Position numbers and translations under genes: made by a program
The notes under the pieces: generated by a model
The model's database searches: none
What the model was told of the DNA's origin: nothing
Seen by the model: only the letters and a program-made list of their open reading frames with translations
IMG/VR virus record: IMGVR_UViG_2706795801_000001
Location: 32,001 to 96,000 of that record
Source of the DNA: a virus
Lineage: Duplodnaviria; Caudoviricetes
Reading direction: 5' to 3' (one strand)
Length of the DNA stretch: 64,000 bases
Part shown: one piece after another, positions 2,968 to 60,800 of the stretch
How the letters are laid out: the number at the start of each line of letters is the position of its first letter
Position numbering within the stretch: position 1 is the stretch's first letter

Positions 2968-4391
2968 GATTGAAGAAGATACAAGACTACTATGGTATGT
3001 TACCTTTTCCGTTGACTGACGGACAGAAGTATAGTCTGGAGGAGTTCACTACTGGGACAGGACATTATGCGCTTGGAGGTGTCCAAGGGGCTGGAAAATC
3101 CACCGTAATGGCTCTACTAAGTAAATTCTATGGGGATGAAGTAATCTTCTGTGCATCTTCTGGCACTGCATCTAAACAAATGCCTGATGGTATTGGTAGC
3201 GGTACTGCACATTCTATACTGAGCCTATTTACCGAAGTATCTAGACCCGAGATGATGAGTAAAGTTAATAAGACTACCACAGCATTATTTGCTAAGAGTG
3301 ATTTGATCAAGGTGGTGGTTGTTGATGAAGCTTTTGCTATGGATAGTGATAAACTGTACACAATGTTACATCGTATCAAAAGATTCAACAAAAGGACAAG
3401 TAATCGCGGAGAACGGGACATTAGACTACTACTAGTTGGCGATTGGTGCCAAAGATTACCTATACTTTCAAACGAGGAAAAGCTAACAGTTAATGAGAAA
3501 CATGGACATTGGTTAATGTTTAAATCTAATCCTTGGAAAGAAGCTGATATTAAAGTTTTGATGTTGACTGAGGTCAAACGACAAGATGATAAAGTGTTTA
3601 AAGCTTGTCTTGATGTGATACGTTATGGTATTGAACATCGATATGAGGGAGCATTGAAGTGGTTGAATCAAAGGTATTCTAAGGAATATGATGATAGTTT
3701 ACTCTTGTTAGCCCCTACTAATAAAACTGTCACTGCAGCTAATAATTTATCTCTGCAGCGTAACCCCAACCCTAAAGGTTTATACACTGCAACAATCACT
3801 GGTAGGTATAACCTCAATGACTCACCCCTAGAAAAGGAAGTGATGTTGGCAGTAGGTAGTCCTGTGATTTCTGTAATAAATCATGAAGATGGTGACTATT
3901 GTAACGGAAGTTACGGTCATGTTACAGAAATGCAGTCCGATGGATGTTGGGTGCGTTTTGTTGGAGACCAAGAAGACACTTTTGTAGGGATGGTGACATT
4001 ACGGGAAGAGGAATCTTATATTAAGAAAGATGTCCTGCAAGAAGATGGTACATATGCGGATGAGCAAGGGAAAACTCTAGTGGGGACATGTACTGGTTTA
4101 TGTCTTAAGATTGCAGCGGCATATACTATAGCAAGGGCACAAGGTCGCACATTTAATTGTAAGGTTAATATTGATGTGGGGAATACAAGCTTATATACCA
4201 ATAAAGCCCTAGGGGATTTTGGGACTAGTGATGTGCTAGTTGCATGTTCCCGTGTAACCGATGTGAAAAACCTTACTCTAGTCCGTAAGATCGAACCAAA
4301 ACATATTAAGGTGTGTCGTGAGAGTATTGCTTTCTGGCATGAGAGTTTAGCTAAACAAGAGGAGAAATTAAAATGTCAGAATTATCTTTAG
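2964..4391 (+). CDS. SF1B (PIF1/Dda/RecD-like) DNA helicase
   Basis: Walker A GVQGAGKS, Walker B VVDEA, GDWCQRLP, EVKRQDD, YTIARAQGRT, VACSRV. Confidence 0.9.
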   Translation: MRLKKIQDYYGMLPFPLTDGQKYSLEEFTTGTGHYALGGVQGAGKSTVMALLSKFYGDEVIFCASSGTASKQMPDGIGSGTAHSILSLFTEVSRPEMMSKVNKTTTALFAKSDLIKVVVVDEAFAMDSDKLYTMLHRIKRFNKRTSNRGERDIRLLLVGDWCQRLPILSNEEKLTVNEKHGHWLMFKSNPWKEADIKVLMLTEVKRQDDKVFKACLDVIRYGIEHRYEGALKWLNQRYSKEYDDSLLLLAPTNKTVTAANNLSLQRNPNPKGLYTATITGRYNLNDSPLEKEVMLAVGSPVISVINHEDGDYCNGSYGHVTEMQSDGCWVRFVGDQEDTFVGMVTLREEESYIKKDVLQEDGTYADEQGKTLVGTCTGLCLKIAAAYTIARAQGRTFNCKVNIDVGNTSLYTNKALGDFGTSDVLVACSRVTDVKNLTLVRKIEPKHIKVCRESIAFWHESLAKQEEKLKCQNYL

Positions 4392-5095
4392 GTGATCGTA
4401 TGAAAGGTTATGAGAAAGTCCCACAACAGAAGTTAATGAGTAAAACTCCTGTAATTATGCGGCTTGACGGAAAAGCTTTCCATACTTATACTCGTGATTG
4501 CGATAAACCGTTTGATACAGATTTACACATTATCCGTCAAGGTGTATTGGAATATCTCTGTACCAATATACAGGGTTGTATCTTAGGTTACTCTCAAAGC
4601 GATGAGATTTCATTAGTACTTAAGGATTGGGATACTTATAATACATCAGCTTGGTTTGATAATAAGATTCAGAAATTATGTTCAGTTAGTGCTTCTATGG
4701 CTACAGCGGAGTGGAATTGTCTCTCATCTCAAGTAGATAGTGAGCGTGTAACAGGTTCAAATAAGTTTAATATACATGCTTTATTTGATACCAGATGTTT
4801 TAACCTACCAATCAACGAGGTTATTAATTATCTAATCTGGCGTCAACAGGATTGGGAACGTAACAGTGTCCAGATGTTAGGTCAGAGTCTATATTCTCAT
4901 AAGGAATTACAAGGAGTCTCTTGTAAGCAGATGATTACTAACATAGAAAATGACCACGGCATTGTGTGGGGAGAGTTACCTTCTTGGCAGAAACAAGGAG
5001 AAGTGTGGTTTAATGGTGAGGTTAAAACAGATTTTATTTTCAAAGAAAATAGATTGGAAGTTGATACACTGTTAAATATTACATCGAATATTTGA
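4373..5095 (+). CDS. thg1: tRNA-His guanylyltransferase Thg1-like 3'-5' polymerase
   Basis: RMKGYE, RLDGKAFHTYT, YSQSDEISL, FDTR, WRQQDWERNS motifs. Confidence 0.92.
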   Translation: MSELSLGDRMKGYEKVPQQKLMSKTPVIMRLDGKAFHTYTRDCDKPFDTDLHIIRQGVLEYLCTNIQGCILGYSQSDEISLVLKDWDTYNTSAWFDNKIQKLCSVSASMATAEWNCLSSQVDSERVTGSNKFNIHALFDTRCFNLPINEVINYLIWRQQDWERNSVQMLGQSLYSHKELQGVSCKQMITNIENDHGIVWGELPSWQKQGEVWFNGEVKTDFIFKENRLEVDTLLNITSNI

Positions 5096-6640: not shown

Positions 6641-7351
6641 ATGGTACAATTTATAGTAGAACTGCCAGATAAACGTATTGAGTTAGATGAAAGTAAAAGG
6701 CAGCGCATTATCGAGGAAGGTAACGCCGATATTAGTCAGAGGTTAAAATTAGCCCTTTATGTACAGAAAAGTATCCAAAAAAGGCTTGATGCTGGGCTTA
6801 AGACTAATAAGATTAATGCTGATGAAATTAGAAGGGTAATTGAACACTGGTATGCCAATGGCAGGGGAGTGTTAACTAAATCATTTAAGAAGGTATATGA
6901 TGAATCACCTCCGTCTAAAACTAAAGAGGTGGATTGGGTTACTGATATTGGAGGTAAGACTTATTTTAATAAAGAGTTTAGGATTGCGGTTGATAGTATT
7001 AAACTGAAAGATTTCGTTAAACTAAGAGAGAGTAAACTCTTTACTTATGGAACTAATAATACACCACTAACTACGAGGATTAGACAAATGGAAATAGCTG
7101 CCATATATGAAGAATTGTTAGAAGATAAAGATAAGGCTTTGGAAAGTAAGGATGTTGAATTGTTAAAGAAGGATGATGAGATATCTATGCTACGAGCAGA
7201 GTTAGAAGTTGCTAACTCCCTCAAACGTGATTGGGATACCATAGCTTTATCTTATAGAGAAAAAGGTTTTACACAAAAACAGATTGCAGAGCTTGTAGGT
7301 AAAAGTCTATCTACAATTAAAAGACTGTTTGCAGAGAATAGGGTAAATTGA
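6641..7351 (+). CDS. Coiled-coil protein with C-terminal helix-turn-helix
   Basis: GFTQKQIAELVGKSLSTIKR HTH preceded by a coiled coil. Confidence 0.75.
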   Translation: MVQFIVELPDKRIELDESKRQRIIEEGNADISQRLKLALYVQKSIQKRLDAGLKTNKINADEIRRVIEHWYANGRGVLTKSFKKVYDESPPSKTKEVDWVTDIGGKTYFNKEFRIAVDSIKLKDFVKLRESKLFTYGTNNTPLTTRIRQMEIAAIYEELLEDKDKALESKDVELLKKDDEISMLRAELEVANSLKRDWDTIALSYREKGFTQKQIAELVGKSLSTIKRLFAENRVN

Positions 7352-8992: not shown

Positions 8993-9378
8993 TAGTACCT
9001 CACTGAAGCAAATGATTGATGAATTACATCAGGAGGTGTAATATGTTTAAATTACTAAAGGTTTGGTGGTATTATTCAGTTCTTAGTAAAGTACTGCTGG
9101 ATGAAAATGGCAACCCATATGATAGAAAAGGTATGAAACACTTACGTGTTTAAATGAAAATTGTAAGCGTTGCTTACGAGAGGAGACAGATACAAGCTCC
9201 TCTATAATCCCTACGGAGTAGGAAATGTAATCCTTAATTTATTAAGTTGTTTCTGTTAATTACGTAGATAATCTAACGAATGTTTCATTCGTTTCGGTTT
9301 TATGTATCTGATATGAAAAATCCATTTTATCTGGCTAAACTCAGAGACAGCTTGAGTAGATTTAAATAAGGGGGTTAG

Positions 9379-9633
9379 ATGAAACATCAACAATACATTG
9401 CATGTAAACGTGATGGTACTTTTGAATTTAGAAATGGTGAGCCTGTATTAAAACAAGAAGGTGATATTGCAATATTTAATTGTGAAGATAGTTTGGATTT
9501 ATCACAAATTAGTATGTTATCCGATTACTTTTATAACAACCCATTTAAAACGGGTACGTTTTCTAATCCAGCAGTTTCGTTAGAAGAATCTAGAATTCGG
9601 ACGAAAGATAAAATTAACAAAATAAAAGTTTGA
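9379..9633 (+). CDS. Hypothetical protein
   Basis: 84-aa ORF with AAGGGG RBS. Confidence 0.55.
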   Translation: MKHQQYIACKRDGTFEFRNGEPVLKQEGDIAIFNCEDSLDLSQISMLSDYFYNNPFKTGTFSNPAVSLEESRIRTKDKINKIKV

Positions 9634-9658
9634 CACACTTAGATGTTCAAGGTATTAT
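9630..9658 (+). promoter_or_regulatory. Sigma70 promoter of the RNA operon
   Basis: TTGACA-N17-TATTAT. Confidence 0.75.
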
Positions 9659-9671
9659 GTACTTATAGAAA

Positions 9672-9890
9672 CAAACGGGAGTTAAACGAAGATGTTCGTG
9701 GTTGCCGAGTCATGATTGCACTGGAGACACCTTTAACAATGTGATAATCGGGGCTAGGTTGCGGTGCGTTGGGCCAATCTATGGACGCCATCGTAAGCTG
9801 TTATTTCATTCGATAATAAGGATGGTGATAATATCTCGCAGCATGAAGCGATAGACATGCAAGCAAAGTTAACGCTATGCGCCAAATGCG
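9672..9890 (+). ncRNA. Candidate structured RNA, first element of the RNA operon
   Basis: GC-enriched, no RBS-led ORF, local helices such as CGCCATC/GATGGTG and GCATG/CATGC. Confidence 0.4.
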
Positions 9891-9908
9891 TTTAAATATT
9901 ATTTTTAT

Positions 9909-10032
9909 GCTAACTTTGGTTTAACGGTATAACGAAGCCGCTGAAAAAGATAAGATAACCCAAAGGCCACGGGTCGTATTCTTTAGTAGGTTAGAGGCTT
10001 AGGCGTCAAGTTCGACTCTTGGCAGGTTAGCA
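9909..10032 (+). ncRNA. tRNA-like RNA with enlarged anticodon arm
   Basis: Acceptor GCTAACTT/AGGTTAGC, D-like GTTTAACGGTATAAC, AAGCC/GGCTT stem enclosing ~56 nt, T arm TCAAG-TTCGACT-CTTGG. Confidence 0.65.
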
Positions 10033-10048
10033 TAAAAATAATATTTAA

Positions 10049-10124
10049 GCGTAATTAGCTCAGATGGTAGAGCGCTATCCTTCCAAGTTAGTGGTCATCG
10101 GTTCGAATCCGATATTACGCTCCA
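10049..10124 (+). tRNA. tRNA-Gly(UCC)
   Basis: Cloverleaf GCGTAAT/ATTACGC, anticodon loop CTTCCAA, TTCGAAT T-loop, encoded CCA. Confidence 0.95.
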
Positions 10125-10191
10125 AATGTCCAGTTGCAGGATTCTGGCACACGGTAATAACAACCGTATAATCAACACCTGCTTTAATTAA

Positions 10192-10269: not shown

Positions 10270-11960
10270 CTACTACACGTTAGTACTAGACAACACCATT
10301 GAGATATAGTATAGTTTGTGAGAAGGTTGTTTTGTCTTAGGGACCTATGATTGTAAGACCCAAGTGATACCTGCGTACAGGATGACAATCCGAATGACTG
10401 ACGTAAACAGTCTATATTTTAAAGTGTTTGGTAAGTTGATAGTGCGGCTCAATTTTAAATGGTATGAGGTGGCAGCATATCAGTCAAACACTTTAAAATG
10501 TAATTACATTGAAGTTATTATCATAGCTTCAATCAATTGTTACATTAAAAGGAGGATAAGCCACCTCCTTTCTGAGATACCATAAGAAATTGCGACTATG
10601 GTTAGAAGTTTAAATGGCAAACAATGTTGGTTGGCGCAGATTACGTCAGTTGCGGCAAAAGGCTTCGTTTACTGGAGTCGTTTAAAAGGTGGGCGAATAC
10701 AACACCTAACCAACAACACTTCTGATGTGTCTAAACTCAAGACGTATAGTAAATAAAAAGCTCTGCAAACCAGTAACGGAACTGGGAGAAGAAAGAAACA
10801 AAACGGTACGGAGTTATGTGGTTCTCCAGCAATACTATACACACTCCTCTGAAGAGTTTAATCTCAAGACAATACTCCTGCCCCGTCCTCGTAAGAGTTG
10901 GAGTTCTTTCCTGTAACAAGGTTGTAGCCAGAGTGCACATAAAAGTTATAATTCGGATTTAAGGTTGTTAGTCATCCTTAAGTAAATTATTGTAAAACTA
11001 ACAAATTCTACTGTATACTTGCCAATGGTTTAAGGTAGTCTTATAGCGGAAACGCACTTCATTGGCGCGATAATGTTTGTTAGTATTTATATACATCCCT
11101 CATTAACATGAGTTCTAGTTGTAATTACACAAGGCAGACTGCTAACGTCCCACATACAAAAGAGAGTACCACTCAAGTGTGGGTATTTGGTTGTTAGCCA
11201 GTCCGTGACTGGGTGATAAAACGACCGCTGGTATTGTAATTTAAGTTGTGGGTAACGTGATACCTTATGACCACACCCATGTTACAATGATGGTAATGTC
11301 GTTCATGAAAGTCATATTCCCTACCGAACCCAGATACTGGTTCAACACCTTGCCATTAATATATGGTTTCTGTGCAACGCAGACTAAGTAGGTTAATTTC
11401 GGGTCTGTTGTACAAGGTAACGCATATGCGTTAAATAGAAAGTTCCAATGGTTACGACCTTGGTAACGGCAAAGTCCTTTCCTATGCACCAATCAACGAT
11501 GTCATAGTCAGAGGCAAACACTAGGACATAACCCTGCCTAGTATAAAACGGTTTTGGGTGTAATAATATGTAAGCGACCACATGACTTTATCGTGGGGAC
11601 GGCTGGTATTCTGGTAAGATGATCCAAGACTCCATTATAATGGTAAACTTAAAGAACGCAAATGTGATGCTTTAGGCTAAAGCGTGGTGAGTGGGAGTAA
11701 CATCCAATTTAAGCAATGAGCCTTCAGGTAGCTCCTGAAATGTCCACGGATTCACATATATAGCTTGCACATGACCACTGATTCAAGCCAGTGCATAAGC
11801 AACTCCTGTCATTCGTGGCACTCGGTTGGGAGTATAATCTGGACTGGGAGACTAATAAAACCTTGTATTGTTCAAGGTCAGAAGTAAGACACTGTGAATG
11901 TCTAGGTAGACGTACTGACACATTGAGTCCCACCAAGTATTGGGTATCTACTCATACAGA
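10270..11960 (+). ncRNA. Large ornate non-coding RNA(s), GOLLD/ROOL-like candidate
   Basis: ~1.7 kb without an RBS-led ORF, after tRNAs and before a terminator; many long-range helices, GNRA-capped hairpins and pseudoknots. Confidence 0.6.
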
Positions 11961-42523: not shown

Positions 42524-42745
42524 TTATATTTCGTCGCACAACTTCTCCCACCAGTTTATTCCTTGATGTGTCAGTCTCCAATAAAAAGCATCATCTAGTG
42601 TGATATCCCAACACCAATCAGTACCTCTGTATCTTTCGTGAGTATTCTTCAACAAGTTCAATGCGACACCATCCTCTAACACTTTTGTTACATCTTTGAA
42701 TAGAACTGTCTCTTTAATTTCTGCATCTGTTAGTGTAAGTTTCAT
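42524..42745 (-). CDS. Hypothetical protein
   Basis: 73 aa, AGGAG RBS. Confidence 0.6.
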   Translation of the reverse strand: MKLTLTDAEIKETVLFKDVTKVLEDGVALNLLKNTHERYRGTDWCWDITLDDAFYWRLTHQGINWWEKLCDEI

Positions 42746-42746
42746 A

Positions 42747-43112
42747 TTAAACTTCTCCTGTCATATAATTAACCCAAGCCTCATCTGACTTAAAGTGCCG
42801 AACACAACTGGAATCTAATCTATTACGTGGCAATGTATATTGGTCATTAAAAGGTTGACCACTACTCTTAGCAATTAAGTAAGCCTCCCCTCTATCATAA
42901 TATAAACCACATTCATCAATAAAACCTTGCCCTAGATCTTCTAACTCTTTCACCATCTTAACTTCACAACCAAAGGCTTTGAATGCACTGACCACCTCCT
43001 GCATATTGCGACCTCCGTGGCAGTTATCTACCAAGGTTACTTCTCTGGTAATACCCTCTGGGTTTGTTACTCGGTATACATTTGCTGCAGCTACAATAAT
43101 TTTCTTATGCAT
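42747..43112 (-). CDS. Hypothetical phage protein
   Basis: 121 aa, IVAAAN...QGFIDECG...REAY-like motif. Confidence 0.65.
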   Translation of the reverse strand: MHKKIIVAAANVYRVTNPEGITREVTLVDNCHGGRNMQEVVSAFKAFGCEVKMVKELEDLGQGFIDECGLYYDRGEAYLIAKSSGQPFNDQYTLPRNRLDSSCVRHFKSDEAWVNYMTGEV

Positions 43113-57889: not shown

Positions 57890-60800
57890 ATGTCAGAAGA
57901 AATCACCAAGTATGTAGTGGAGGCAGAATTTGATTCCGCTAAAGCTACAAAAAAGTTGGATGAGTTTAATAAGAAATTAACGTCTTATTCCAAAGCTCAG
58001 AACAACTTTAGAAAGAATAAAATGGGTATGCAGAGGGTTCTAGATAATACCAGAAAGCATAAGATGCTAACGGATGTTGTTAAGACGCCTCAGATAGCTA
58101 AATTGAAACCTCCAACATCACCAGTTAATAGATTAGAAACACTATCAGGTAAAGAGAAGGTACTACCTAACCTATATAAGTATAGTGAGGCTTCTTTAAA
58201 ACGACAAAGTGAATACTTAGATAAGATTAAAGATAAGAAGGTGAAACTATCTTATGTTAATAATCTAAATAAACAAGAGCGAAAGGTCAAGTTAGATAAC
58301 AAAATCCCCTCAAGACAGAAGGTAGCTGTTAGTGTCAAAACTAAAACCCCTACCAAACGTTTAGAGTCTAAGACTTCCAAAGTAAAACCTGTACCAACCT
58401 TAGACAGAAAAATAAGGATACTTAGTAAGGTAAAAGATAGTAGGGTTAACGAGAAAGACCAACCCAAACCTAGTAGATTACAAACACTAAAATCTAAAGA
58501 GAAACTATACCCAAACCTATATAAGTATAGTGAAGATTCTCTTAAGCGGCAAAGTGAATACCTAGCTAAGTTAAAAGATAAGAAGGTTAAATTAGATTTC
58601 ATCGACAATCTTGACAAGGTAAAGAAGAGATTAAAATCCTTAAATAGACAAAAGACTAGGGAAGTGCCTGATAAGATTAGTAAAGTAGTGGGTTCAGATA
58701 AGAAACCTTTACAGAAAATCAATACTATCAAGGAAAAGGTGGTCAAAGTAGGTAAATCCCCTAAACAGCCTATGCTAAATGCCCATCACAAGGAACGTGA
58801 GAAGTATTTAAATAAAGAGTACAAGAACAAGGTTAACAGGGAAAGGAGTTTAAAGTCTGCACACATCTTGGCTATCAAAGAAAACATTAAGTTTGATAGG
58901 AAAGCAGCAGAAGCTAAACGAAGCGAAGCAAGTAAACCAGATGGTATGGATACTCATCTTAAACAACGTGAGAAGTATTTAGATAAACAATACAAGAAAC
59001 AGTTAAGTCGAACTAAAGAGTTAAAAGCGGCACATGTAGCTGCTATTAAACAGAATATTAAGTTTGACAGACAACGGAAGATGGCTGCTGCTAAGGTTAA
59101 ACAACCTGCTATTATGAAACCTGCTGATGCTCATGTGAAAGCTAGAGAGGCTAGTATAGTTCAAGCTAATAGAAAGGAAACTCGTAGGAAGTCTAATCTA
59201 GGAGTCGCCAAAACATCATTTGATAGGTCTGACTTAAACCTAACTCAATATACTGACGCAAGACAACTTGCAGCACAAGCAGCACTGAGGGAGTCTATAG
59301 CGCAAGCTAAGACTGCTGATGAAGTCAAGATGATAGTTGCAACAGAACATAAACGCCTAAGAGTAATGAAGCAGAATGAGCGCTCTATGGGTAAGCAGAA
59401 CTACCTGATGCAACGTATGAACGCATCCAGTAAACAGTTTACAAGTAACATGTTCTCTGCATTCGCCATAGCTGGTGCTGGTGCTGGTATTACTAGAATA
59501 GGACAAGACTTCGAAGCAGTAAATAACACCATGTTGGCAGTAAGTACTAATACGCAAGAAGCAGGATCTAACTTTAAGTTTGTTAGAGATGAAGCTTATA
59601 GGTTAGGACTAGGACTTGCAAACAGTGGTAAGAACTTTGCTAAGATGTTATCTGCCAGAGGTAATATGAGCCTAGAGGATACAAAGAAAGCCTTCACAGG
59701 TATTTCAGAAATGTCTACATTGTTGGGGTTAAGTGCAGAAGAAAGTACAAGAGCTAAAGTTTGTGGCTCCTTTTAATAGTAATGTTAAATGTAAAATCTT
59801 TTTAATTGCTGGGACACCCACTTTATGGTGGACAATCAGCAGGGACGTTAACGTAAGTTAACACCTTCAGAGACTAACCCGTTAGGGTGTAGATTCTACT
59901 TAGAATCGAAAATAAGAAATCCTTTTAGGATTAAGATATAGTCCACAGACAAACGCTTTACAACAAATAAATCATTGTTTGGCTTCATAGAAATGTGATG
60001 AATAATTAAATTTATGAATTCGGTGGATCTCCTAAATGGAAGTAGGACAATACCGAGCGAAGCCTCGAAAGAGGAACGTGTAAAGACTAACTCGTAAGAG
60101 TGTAGGGGACGATACTATATCCTCGAAGCGTAAATAACCTGAACATTAAGTTGAAGGTTAAGATATAGTCTGAACTTCTATAGTAATATAGAGCGTATAA
60201 TACGGAGTAAGTCATTGATTTACTTAACAATTTTGGATGAGTAAAGGAGTTGTATCGGCTAAATCCTTGGCCTTTTAACTAGCGATAGTTATCAATAATT
60301 CATTTAATTGCTGGAACCTCTCATATGAGACAATCAGCAGGGAAGACTACTCGTAGTAACCTCCAACGACCAACCGTTATCGGTGTAGATTCTAAGTAGA
60401 GTCGAAACAGTGAAAACCTCTAAGGAGGTTATGATATGGTCTAGCCCTATAGTGATATAGGTTATATCTAAAGACTTTGATATAGTGACTCTTAACGTAA
60501 GTCATTGATTTAACTAGAGGAATTAAAGCTTCAAATGGGTAAACTTTGCCCAGTATAAAATTATTTAATTGCGAGAAGCCTTAATGCTTGTGACAGATGA
60601 TGTATTTATGGTATCATTGTTGCAGGTGAGATGGTAATTCGCAGGGAAGACCCACCACCTCAAAAGAGGAGTGTGTTGATATTATGAAAGCTATAGAAGA
60701 ATTTCCAAATTACTTTATTGATGAAAGCGGTAATGTGTTTAATAGTAGAGGGGTTCCAATTAAATCCCAATTAAATATAGATGGTTATAGGGTAGTAAAC

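What the first reader, a model, noticed from the sequence alone, without database searches (positions are those of the whole stretch)
9892..10048. tRNA mimic with a ~56-nt hairpin replacing the anticodon loop, mounted on a 23-bp perfect stem
Seen: canonical T-loop TTCGACT, D-loop GG and acceptor helix. The AAGCC/GGCTT anticodon stem encloses a long imperfect hairpin (ACCC/GGGT tip) instead of a 7-nt loop. There is no encoded CCA. The acceptor helix extends into the perfect inverted repeat TTAAATATTATTTTTATGCTAAC (9892-9914) / GTTAGCATAAAAATAATATTTAA (10026-10048), which ends exactly at tRNA-Gly. Inference: not a decoding tRNA. It may be a decoy for host anticodon nucleases or synthetases, a Y-RNA-like tRNA mimic, or a substrate for the phage CCA and Thg1 enzymes.
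Basis: partly seen in the sequence, partly recalled or inferred. Interest (0 to 1): 0.75.

Follow-up and report, generated by a model that had tools for sequence, protein, structure and literature searches.

The report
Broken tRNA gene sealed in hairpin
A Shewanella sea-ice phage carries, just upstream of its two working tRNA genes, a tRNA-shaped sequence that cannot decode because its anticodon loop is interrupted and its ends are locked in a 23-bp perfect stem; it is most likely a leftover of gene shuffling, not a proven decoy.

Summary
The 23-bp perfect inverted repeat, T-loop, D-loop GG, AAGCC/GGCTT stem, 56-nt insert and missing CCA are all at the stated coordinates, and the 3' arm ends one base before tRNA-Gly.

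The tRNA likeness is real but below threshold. GenBank already annotates it as "tRNA-OTHER, Pseudo tRNA" in the near-identical Shewanella phage 1/40. ARAGORN finds it only with relaxed settings, and Rfam does not find it.

No homologue was found outside this lineage. I searched IMG/VR, JGI metagenomes, 185,000 species genomes and GenBank phages.

Related phages share the promoter and linkers, but the slot between them holds different cassettes. In this lineage a conserved neighbouring RNA is truncated. The insert has no splicing motif, the phage encodes no splicing enzymes, and the sister phage has an uncompensated C·A mismatch in the stem.

Best reading (about 0.5): a disrupted tRNA cassette, co-transcribed with the tRNAs. 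Its long duplex came from a recent DNA-level event and serves at most as an RNase III or processing hairpin. A functional tRNA-elbow mimic remains possible (about 0.25) but has no positive evidence. An earlier scan follow-up described the adjacent DNA of this genome as a patchwork of cassettes, which agrees.

The parts
9630..9658 (+). Sigma-70-type promoter (TTGACA, 17 nt, TATTAT) that drives the tRNA/ncRNA operon containing the element
   Evidence: scores 11 of 12 consensus matches. The same promoter and transcript start are conserved in relatives L016, L017, L019 and L021.
9888..9891 (+). GCGT, left copy of a 4-bp direct repeat flanking the inverted repeat. The right copy is the first 4 nt of tRNA-Gly (10049-10052).
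   Evidence: Read. Removing the element plus one GCGT leaves CCA-AAT-tRNA, the junction type seen elsewhere in these arrays. The chance of a 4-bp repeat is about 1/256. In RNA, GCGT can also pair with GCGT through G·U pairs.
9892..9914 (+). 5' arm of the 23-bp perfect inverted repeat. Its inner 6 nt (GCTAAC) form the 5' strand of the acceptor stem.
   Evidence: Phage 1/40 has C instead of T at 9899.
9910..10031 (+). Pseudo-tRNA body: acceptor, D-arm, interrupted anticodon arm and T-arm
   Evidence: GenBank KJ018211 annotates 'tRNA-OTHER, Pseudo tRNA' at 42658-42779, which maps to this range. ARAGORN with relaxed settings calls 9911-10031 with a 47-nt intron.
9919..9933 (+). D-arm: GTT/AAC stem with a loop containing G18 G19. 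U8 is T9917 and A14 is A9923.
   Evidence: Read; ARAGORN drawing.
9935..10000 (+). Anticodon arm: stem AAGCC/GGCTT enclosing the insert
   Evidence: This arm alone folds at -15.4 kcal/mol, z -1.0.
9940..9995 (+). 56 nt in place of a 7-nt anticodon loop. Read as a 47-nt insert, the residual loop is CUGAAAA or CUGAAAG (Phe GAA-like) at the canonical 37/38 split, or CUGUUAG (Asn GUU) at the 33/34 split. The imperfect hairpin has tip ACCC/GGGT.
   Evidence: In ensemble folding, GGGUCG 9971-9976 pairs with the T-arm 3' strand at p about 0.85.
10005..10023 (+). T-arm: stem TCAAG/CTTGG (plus G10005-C10023) and loop TTCGACT
   Evidence: It is 92% identical over 13 nt to the T-arm of the phage's tRNA-Arg (repeat D12).
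10026..10048 (+). 3' arm of the inverted repeat: acceptor 3' strand GTTAGC plus a 17-nt AT-rich trailer with no CCA
10049..10124 (+). Functional tRNA-Gly(UCC) with encoded CCA. Its 5' end abuts the element, and its first 5 nt can extend the long stem in the precursor.

Best explanation
The element is a disrupted tRNA-derived cassette, in effect a tRNA pseudogene. It lies in the leader of the phage's early tRNA/non-coding-RNA operon, a region that related phages constantly reshuffle.

It is transcribed from the conserved promoter at 9630-9658 together with tRNA-Gly and tRNA-Arg. The promoter is shown; transcription is inferred.

It cannot decode. Its anticodon loop carries a 47-56 nt insert that has no splicing signal, and the phage encodes no splicing enzyme that I could detect. 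It cannot be charged, because its acceptor end has no CCA and is locked in a 25-bp duplex that extends to about 30 bp in the precursor.

The perfect, G·U-free 23-bp repeat is best explained by a recent DNA-level event. One possibility is inverted duplication or template switching seeded by the acceptor-stem palindrome. The other is insertion with the 4-bp GCGT duplication. Long-term selection on an RNA helix is the less likely source.

At the RNA level the only role I would commit to is passive. The duplex is a textbook-length substrate for host RNase III, and RNase P cutting at the 5' end of tRNA-Gly would free the element as a hairpin closed at both ends. So it behaves as a processing spacer or stable by-product, not as an effector. 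These last steps are inferred and were not tested.
For: 1. It is already called a pseudo-tRNA by the depositors of the sister genome. It falls below the thresholds of ARAGORN and Rfam tRNA.

2. Nothing indicates the insert can be removed. The sequence has no bulge-helix-bulge geometry: the internal loops are 1x1 and 7x7. No group I hit lies here, although three group I introns are detected elsewhere in the window. The phage has no tRNA splicing endonuclease, RtcB or Rnl2-type ligase.

3. No homologue exists outside the 1/4-1/40 lineage.
- Exact 19-27-mers found nothing related in IMG/VR, JGI metagenomes or 185,579 species genomes.
- blastn against 50,697 phage records found nothing.
- A covariance model of the element found nothing in related phage records or loci.

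4. The locus is a mosaic. Relatives found through the upstream protein share the promoter and linkers but carry different contents:
- tRNA-Arg plus tRNA-Gly only;
- tRNA-Met plus tRNA-Arg;
- one 140-nt RNA alone;
- that RNA plus a different tRNA-like sequence plus tRNA-Met.

5. In this lineage the conserved 140-nt RNA next door is broken. Only its 5' part survives (about 9675-9739), its 3' closing strand is gone, and phage 1/40 has a further 14-nt deletion in the remnant. This is direct evidence of decay and rearrangement immediately upstream.

6. The single difference between the two genomes inside the element lies in the stem and is uncompensated: a C·A mismatch.

7. The stem has 23 Watson-Crick pairs and no G·U. 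That pattern fits a young DNA palindrome, not an old RNA helix.

8. Nearest-neighbour ensemble folding gives the T-stem p of about 0.11, the anticodon stem 0.07 and the D-stem 0.01. An insert:T-arm pairing has p of about 0.85. The control tRNAs give 0.85-0.97 and 0.30 for their T-stems.

9. The in-silico spliced sequence is not similar to any tRNA of this phage group (z <= 2).
Against: - The tRNA elbow elements are intact: U8, A14, G18 G19, T54 T55 C56, A58 and G26. Neutral decay would erode them.
- The cloverleaf-plus-stem fold is only 1.9 kcal/mol above the minimum free energy.
- Relatives carry a conserved RNA with the same layout: a tRNA-type acceptor and T-like arm, an expanded centre and an encoded ACCA, with two compensatory pairs. 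This phage group therefore does use non-decoding tRNA-framed RNAs.
- The phage encodes a Thg1-like enzyme and a CCA-adding-type enzyme.
- The element is retained in both sequenced genomes with one change in 157 nt. Background divergence is similar, about 0.8%, so this is uninformative either way.
- RNase III cleavage and the DNA-level origin of the repeat are inferences.
Confidence: 0.5

Rival explanations
1. A functional tRNA-elbow mimic. A stable, exonuclease-resistant RNA displays a tRNA elbow on a long duplex. It would titrate or recruit a protein that recognises tRNA shape: RNase P, a CCA-adding enzyme, the phage Thg1-like enzyme, modification enzymes, or a host tRNA-directed defence nuclease.
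For: - The elbow nucleotides are intact.
- The cloverleaf fold is within 2 kcal/mol of the minimum free energy.
- Both ends are sealed in a duplex, so the RNA would resist 3' exonucleases.
- It lies in an early, promoter-proximal operon.
- The phage encodes Thg1-like and CCA-type enzymes.
- Relatives have a conserved tRNA-framed RNA with an expanded centre.
Against: - No homologue or covariation was found anywhere.
- Close relatives do without it.
- There is no intact anticodon loop to bait anticodon nucleases.
- The predicted ensemble disfavours the T-arm.
- The sister phage has an uncompensated stem mismatch.
- No Ro/TROVE partner is present.
Confidence: 0.25
2. A non-autonomous insertion, either MITE-like or a hairpin DNA captured at a break. 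A 157-bp unit with 23-bp perfect terminal inverted repeats landed exactly at the 5' end of tRNA-Gly and duplicated GCGT. Its tRNA-like interior is cargo or ancestry, as in tRNA-derived mobile elements.
For: - The terminal repeats are perfect.
- A 4-bp direct repeat GCGT flanks both ends, and excising the element restores a normal CCA-AAT-tRNA junction (compare).
- The block 9740-10048 has no counterpart in relatives.
- Mobile DNA is nearby: a relic resembling the 3' flank of TnpB-type transposase genes at 9125-9320. The genome also carries many homing endonuclease genes.
Against: - There is a single copy in the genome.
- The paired-arm pattern found nothing in 185,579 species genomes.
- The 19-mer arm hits in genomes and IMG/VR are isolated, lack a partner arm and occur in unrelated taxa, which is chance level.
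- No DDE transposase is known for such ends, and IS200/IS605-type elements make neither terminal inverted repeats nor target duplications (my own knowledge).
- A 4-bp repeat arises by chance once in 256.
Confidence: 0.12
3. An intron-containing, functional tRNA, for example tRNA-Phe(GAA) with a 47-nt intron at the canonical 37/38 position. It would be spliced, trimmed and given CCA by the phage enzyme.
For: - Splitting the loop at 37/38 leaves CUGAAA+G, a Phe-like loop.
- ARAGORN models a 47-nt intron.
- The phage has a CCA-adding-type enzyme.
Against: - There is no bulge-helix-bulge motif.
- 47 nt is far too short for a group I ribozyme, and Rfam finds none here.
- The phage has no splicing endonuclease, RtcB or RNA ligase; the Rnl1 control search did not ring, so that one is uninformative. 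Bacteria lack a tRNA splicing endonuclease (my own knowledge).
- The acceptor/T stack is 13-14 bp.
- The leader and trailer are fully paired, which disfavours RNase P.
- The anticodon stem needs a G·A mismatch for the Phe reading.
Confidence: 0.03

Closest known systems
tRNA pseudogenes and degenerate tRNA-like sequences in phage tRNA clusters (tRNAscan-SE 'pseudo' class)
   Same: It is adjacent to real tRNAs on the same strand. It has a cloverleaf frame with a good T-loop and D-loop but a sub-threshold score. It is already annotated this way in phage 1/40.
   Different: The acceptor stem is extended into a 23-bp perfect duplex, and a 47-56 nt insert sits in the anticodon loop. It is not a recent copy of a neighbouring tRNA.
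Phage T4 RNA C and RNA D (species 1 and 2 stable RNAs of the T4 tRNA region). Cited from my own knowledge; also named by an earlier follow-up note on this genome.
   Same: Non-decoding small RNAs co-transcribed and co-processed with phage tRNAs, of unknown function.
   Different: Membership was not tested.
Bacterial Y RNAs (YrlA/Yrn1), tRNA mimics mounted on a Ro60-binding stem (Chen et al. 2014, PMC4201824)
   Same: A tRNA-like D/T elbow is attached to a long stem formed by the 5' and 3' ends.
   Different: [quoted passage not shown] YrlA also carries a GNCGAA(N)G motif and lies within 4 kb of a Ro60/TROVE gene. Here the arm order is that of a normal tRNA, the motif is absent, the phage has no TROVE gene and Rfam gives no hit.
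RNase III processing stems formed by leader-trailer pairing (bacterial rRNA operons, phage T7 early RNA). Cited from my own knowledge.
   Same: A duplex of at least 20 bp, made from sequences flanking a structured RNA in a polycistronic precursor, abuts the next gene.
   Different: Cleavage is untested. The enclosed RNA here is a broken tRNA rather than a functional product.
Pseudo-tRNA copies with a hairpin in place of the anticodon arm beside small GIY-YIG nuclease genes (earlier scan notes e1-3175187 and e1-805883; related to T4 SegB homing in tRNA clusters)
   Same: A tRNA-like unit with a hairpin replacing the anticodon loop sits directly upstream of a real tRNA gene, in a genome rich in homing endonucleases.
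   Different: In those cases the pseudo-copies derive from the adjacent tRNA and a nuclease gene lies beside them. Here the unit is unrelated to tRNA-Gly and tRNA-Arg, and I saw no nuclease ORF between about 9640 and 12000.

Membership tests
Canonical tRNA (Rfam RF00005 / ARAGORN) | Scores above the family threshold (29 bits in Rfam; ARAGORN default) | tested here: not met
   Rfam gives no hit, even at E<=10. ARAGORN default is negative. It is found only with -ps and introns allowed.
Canonical tRNA (Rfam RF00005 / ARAGORN) | 7-nt anticodon loop on a 5-bp stem | tested here: not met
   56 nt lie between AAGCC and GGCTT.
Canonical tRNA (Rfam RF00005 / ARAGORN) | T-loop TTCRANY, D-loop GG, U8 and A14 (elbow nucleotides) | tested here: met
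   TTCGACT at 10011-10017, GG at 9926-9927, T9917 and A9923.
Canonical tRNA (Rfam RF00005 / ARAGORN) | 12-bp acceptor/T coaxial stack with a free 3' NCCA end | tested here: not met
   The stack is 13-14 bp, with an extra G10005-C10023 pair or a bulged C10023. No CCA is encoded. The 3' trailer is fully paired with the leader.
Protein-spliced intron-containing tRNA (archaeal/eukaryal type) | Bulge-helix-bulge motif at the exon-intron junctions | tested here: not met
   The predicted arm has a 1x1 loop, a 4-bp helix and then a 7x7 internal loop. There are no 3-nt bulges separated by 4 bp.
Protein-spliced intron-containing tRNA (archaeal/eukaryal type) | Splicing endonuclease and ligase available | tested here: not met
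   PF01974, PF01139 and PF09414 are absent from the phage genome, and the controls rang. The PF09511 search is uninformative because no control rang. The host genome was not searched.
Group I intron in a tRNA anticodon loop | Group I catalytic core (Rfam RF00028, about 200 nt or more) | tested here: not met
   The insert is 47-56 nt. RF00028 hits lie only at 59745-60462 in this window, with none here at E<=10.
YrlA / bacterial Y RNA | Ro60 (TROVE) gene nearby | tested here: not met
   PF05731 is absent from the 133.8-kb phage genome, and the controls rang.
YrlA / bacterial Y RNA | Permuted T-acceptor-D order and a GNCGAA(N)G motif near the 5' end (PMC4201824) | tested here: not met
   The order here is acceptor-D-anticodon-T. 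The only CGAA is in TAACGAAG (9930-9937), which lacks the leading G.
MITE (non-autonomous DNA transposon) | Terminal inverted repeats and a target-site duplication | tested here: met
   23-bp perfect repeats. GCGT lies on both sides, although 4 bp is weak evidence.
MITE (non-autonomous DNA transposon) | Multiple copies, or a related autonomous element with the same ends | tested here: not met
   Single copy in the genome. No paired arms in the species genomes. Only isolated chance 19-mers in genomes and IMG/VR.
RNase III processing site | About 20 bp or more of uninterrupted double-stranded RNA | tested here: met
   25 bp, including one G·U; about 30 bp in the precursor fold.
RNase III processing site | Cleavage by RNase III in vivo or in vitro | not testable with these tools

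The most novel reading that the evidence does not exclude
The element is one member of an undescribed class of phage 'tRNA-framed' RNAs. These have an acceptor and T/D elbow kept intact, the anticodon domain replaced by a variable module, and the ends either given CCA or sealed in duplex. The conserved 140-nt RNA of related phages would belong to the same class. Here the sealed version would act as a nuclease-resistant elbow decoy or as a scaffold for the phage's Thg1-like and CCA-adding enzymes during infection.
Probability: 0.12. Interest if true: 0.75.

Novelty: new member of a known kind. Interest (0 to 1): 0.3.

Why it matters
If the element is only a relic, it still documents how phage tRNA operons evolve. 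Cassettes are swapped between conserved promoters and linkers. Broken pieces stay transcribed. Palindromes grow out of acceptor stems. Annotators should not count it as a tRNA.

If it proved to be a stable, functional RNA, it would add a sealed-end tRNA mimic to the small list of tRNA-shaped regulators and decoys. This would be in a phage that also carries tRNA end-repair enzymes. It can be tested in the laboratory, because the Shewanella glacialimarina host-phage system is in use (PMC9963407).

Tried and rejected
Searches for homologues that found nothing:
- Exact core 22-27-mers in IMG/VR hit only phage 1/40.
- A 22-mer in JGI metagenomes gave nothing.
- A paired-arm pattern in 185,579 species genomes gave nothing.
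- A 19-mer of the arm gave 11 genome hits and 4 viral hits. All are isolated, unpaired and in unrelated taxa, so they are chance matches.
- blastn of the 5' and 3' halves against 50,697 phage records found no related tRNA.
- Anchoring on the tRNA-Gly allele found only phage 1/40.
- A search with the RecD-like neighbour found only phage 1/40.
- A covariance model of the element found nothing in related records or loci.
- Sensitive blastn and nhmmer against the Vibrio phage leaders and the new relatives found nothing.

Ideas considered and dropped:
- The insert hairpin as a designed structure: it is no better than shuffles.
- Insert:T-arm complementarity as a switch: p of about 0.07 against shuffles.
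- Recent duplication of a neighbouring tRNA: no similarity.
- Homology between the element's 3' half and the 3' half of the conserved 140-nt RNA: they share only a GAGGCTT 7-mer in register, and the rest is at random level (my own count).
- A TnpB remnant upstream as the source of the element: Pfam is negative on the neighbouring ORFs, and that transposon family makes no terminal inverted repeats.

Tools unavailable:
Relatives were reached through the search for related loci instead.

Full report
**What the window is.** The window is part of a 133.8-kb virus record with direct terminal repeats. Over this region it is 98-99% identical to Shewanella sp. phage 1/40 from Baltic Sea ice, KJ018211. 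Its size and its two tRNA genes fit the sister isolate phage 1/4, described as carrying tRNA-Arg(UCU) and a tRNA-Gly (PMC9963407). That identification is my inference.

**The observation.**
- The arms 9892-9914 and 10026-10048 are perfectly complementary over 23 bp. One search expected no such match in shuffles. It is the longest inverted repeat in the 64 kb.
- The helix continues for two more pairs into the acceptor stem.
- TTCGACT sits on a 5-bp stem, and the D-loop has GG.
- AAGCC/GGCTT encloses 56 nt, and no CCA follows the acceptor strand.
- tRNA-Gly(UCC) begins at 10049.

The tRNA likeness is not chance. With relaxed, intron-allowing settings ARAGORN calls only this site plus the two true tRNAs in the window. 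Random sequence yields about 0.25 such calls per 64 kb. The depositors of phage 1/40 annotated the same 122 nt as "tRNA-OTHER, Pseudo tRNA".

The likeness is nevertheless sub-threshold. Default ARAGORN and Rfam's tRNA model, even at E<=10, do not report it. Only the long stem is thermodynamically remarkable (z -4.8 for the whole element). The tRNA-like core (z -1.1) and the insert hairpin (z -1.0) are not.

**Can it be a working tRNA?** No.
- The loop can be read as a 47-nt insert. The residual loop is Phe-like (CUGAAA+G) at the canonical 37/38 position, or Asn GUU at 33/34 as ARAGORN draws it.
- The junction has no bulge-helix-bulge geometry.
- The insert is far too short for a group I ribozyme. 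Rfam sees none here, although it finds three group I introns at 59.7-60.5 kb.
- The phage encodes no splicing endonuclease, RtcB or Rnl2-type ligase. The Rnl1 search was uninformative.
- The acceptor/T stack is 13-14 bp, and both ends are buried in duplex.

**Homologues.** None were found outside the 1/4-1/40 pair.
- Exact-word scans of IMG/VR, JGI metagenomes and 185,579 species genomes found nothing related.
- blastn against GenBank phages found nothing.
- A covariance model of the element found nothing.

The two genomes differ at one position in the element. T9899 is C in phage 1/40, which creates an uncompensated C·A mismatch in the stem.

**Context.** I reached more distant relatives through the small protein encoded just upstream at 9379-9633. 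All of them keep the same sigma-70-type promoter and transcript start. What follows the promoter differs from one relative to the next.
- L017, L018, L023 and L024: tRNA-Arg, then tRNA-Gly, with nothing else.
- L021: tRNA-Met, tRNA-Arg, then a long non-coding stretch ending in CCACCA.
- L019 and L020: a single RNA of about 140 nt closed by CGGGAGU/ACUCCCG plus ACCA.
- L016 and L022: that same RNA, then a different weak tRNA-like sequence, tRNA-Met, a spacer shared with this window, and another odd tRNA-like unit.

The slot is therefore a mosaic of cassettes between conserved linkers. This agrees with an earlier follow-up note on the DNA just downstream.

In this window the conserved 140-nt RNA is truncated. 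Its first 65-85 nt are present (about 9675-9739). The sequence then switches to a block of about 310 nt (9740-10048) that has no counterpart anywhere. The RNA's 3' closing strand is absent. Phage 1/40 has lost a further 14 nt of the remnant.

The element therefore sits in a stretch that has demonstrably been rearranged and is decaying.

**Origin of the perfect stem.** Three points bear on it.
- A run of 23 Watson-Crick pairs without a single G·U looks like a young DNA palindrome, not an old RNA helix.
- The repeat grows outward from the natural acceptor-stem palindrome. This is the geometry expected for template-switch or inverted-duplication events.
- GCGT flanks both ends, and removing the element plus one GCGT restores a normal CCA-AAT-tRNA junction. 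That also allows an insertion with target duplication.

I could not separate these possibilities. The transposon version lacks any second copy.

**RNA-level behaviour (inferred).** In the precursor the duplex can extend to about 30 bp by pairing UGCGU (9887-9891) with the first five bases of tRNA-Gly. A duplex of this length is what RNase III cuts. RNase P cleavage at 10048/10049 would leave the element as a hairpin closed at both ends.

The cloverleaf-plus-stem fold is within 1.9 kcal/mol of the minimum. In the ensemble, however, the T-stem has only about 0.11 probability, because GGGUCG in the insert pairs with the T-arm 3' strand. The control tRNAs give 0.85-0.97 and 0.30 for their T-stems. 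This is weak evidence against a robust mimic.

**The functional proposals.** The phage does encode a Thg1-like protein (window 4373-5095) and a CCA-adding-type enzyme.

A Y-RNA-like role fails the tests I could run.
- The phage has no TROVE gene.
- Rfam gives no hit.
- The arm order is normal, not the permuted YrlA order, and the YrlA motif is absent (PMC4201824).

A decoy for anticodon nucleases would need the anticodon loop that is missing here.

The best argument for function is indirect. The elbow nucleotides are intact, and relatives keep a conserved tRNA-framed RNA with an expanded centre and two compensatory pairs.

**Verdict.** "Not a decoding tRNA" is supported. The decoy and mimic ideas are unsupported but not excluded.

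My estimates are:
- about 0.5 for a disrupted tRNA cassette whose stem is a recent DNA-level product and at most a processing hairpin;
- about 0.25 for a functional elbow mimic;
- about 0.12 for a MITE-like or captured insertion as the origin;
- about 0.03 for a spliced tRNA.

No expression data could be obtained.

Noticed in passing
window about 9675-9739; full copies at L016:5207-5345, L022:4207-4345, L019:913-1050, L020:1248-1385: A conserved RNA of about 140 nt follows the operon promoter in related phages. It has a 7-bp closing stem CGGGAGU/ACUCCCG followed by ACCA, a 7-bp hairpin at the D position, a T-like hairpin next to the 3' strand, and a variable centre with two compensatory pairs. 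Rfam has no match. In this window only its 5' part survives.
   Followed up: partly
window 9125-9320: This stretch is 80-83% identical to the DNA immediately 3' of 'transposase' genes of about 370 aa (TnpB size) in Vibrio phages IBT_VpB-34, 501E54-1 and 355E48.1. It looks like a right-end or guide-RNA scaffold relic with no transposase ORF here; Pfam is negative on the neighbouring ORFs.
   Followed up: partly
window 9841-9884: A hairpin (GCAU-GA-AGCG ... CGCU-AUGC) is followed by GCCA and then AAAUG. This is the same CCA-AAAT junction that ends tRNA-Gly and other modules of these arrays. It may be the 3' end of another processed module, or a tRNA 3' remnant.
   Followed up: no
window 10125-10191 and L016:5529-5590: The spacer between tRNA-Gly and tRNA-Arg contains a promoter-like CTGGCA-17-TATAAT. 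It is almost identical in a relative where it separates tRNA-Met from a different tRNA-like unit. So the linkers are conserved while the cassettes are swapped.
   Followed up: partly
L016:5350-5437 and L016:5592-5680: Two further sub-threshold tRNA-like units lie in a related viral contig. Each has an acceptor stem and a T-arm but an aberrant body. One ends in AACCA, and one scores 14 bits against the tRNA-Sec model.
   Followed up: partly
L006 about 1661-1740 (Vibrio phage eugene 12A10) and L007 about 1660-1740: An unannotated tRNA-Met(CAU)-like gene ending in ACCA lies directly after the annotated tRNA-Gly.
   Followed up: no
window 4373-5095: An intact 240-aa Thg1-like ORF (Pfam 93 bits). 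The phage 1/40 record annotates only a 120-aa ORF at the matching place, so the gene may be disrupted or mis-called there.
   Followed up: no
window 10413-10430 / 10485-10502, and phage 1/40 (L001 about 6718-7240): An 18-nt, 94% inverted repeat lies in the same operon. Phage 1/40 carries an extra cassette of about 520 bp, inserted at a repeated TATATTTTAAAGTGTTT junction here.
   Followed up: no
window 59745-60462: Three tandem group I intron hits (58-78 bits) within about 720 nt.
   Followed up: no
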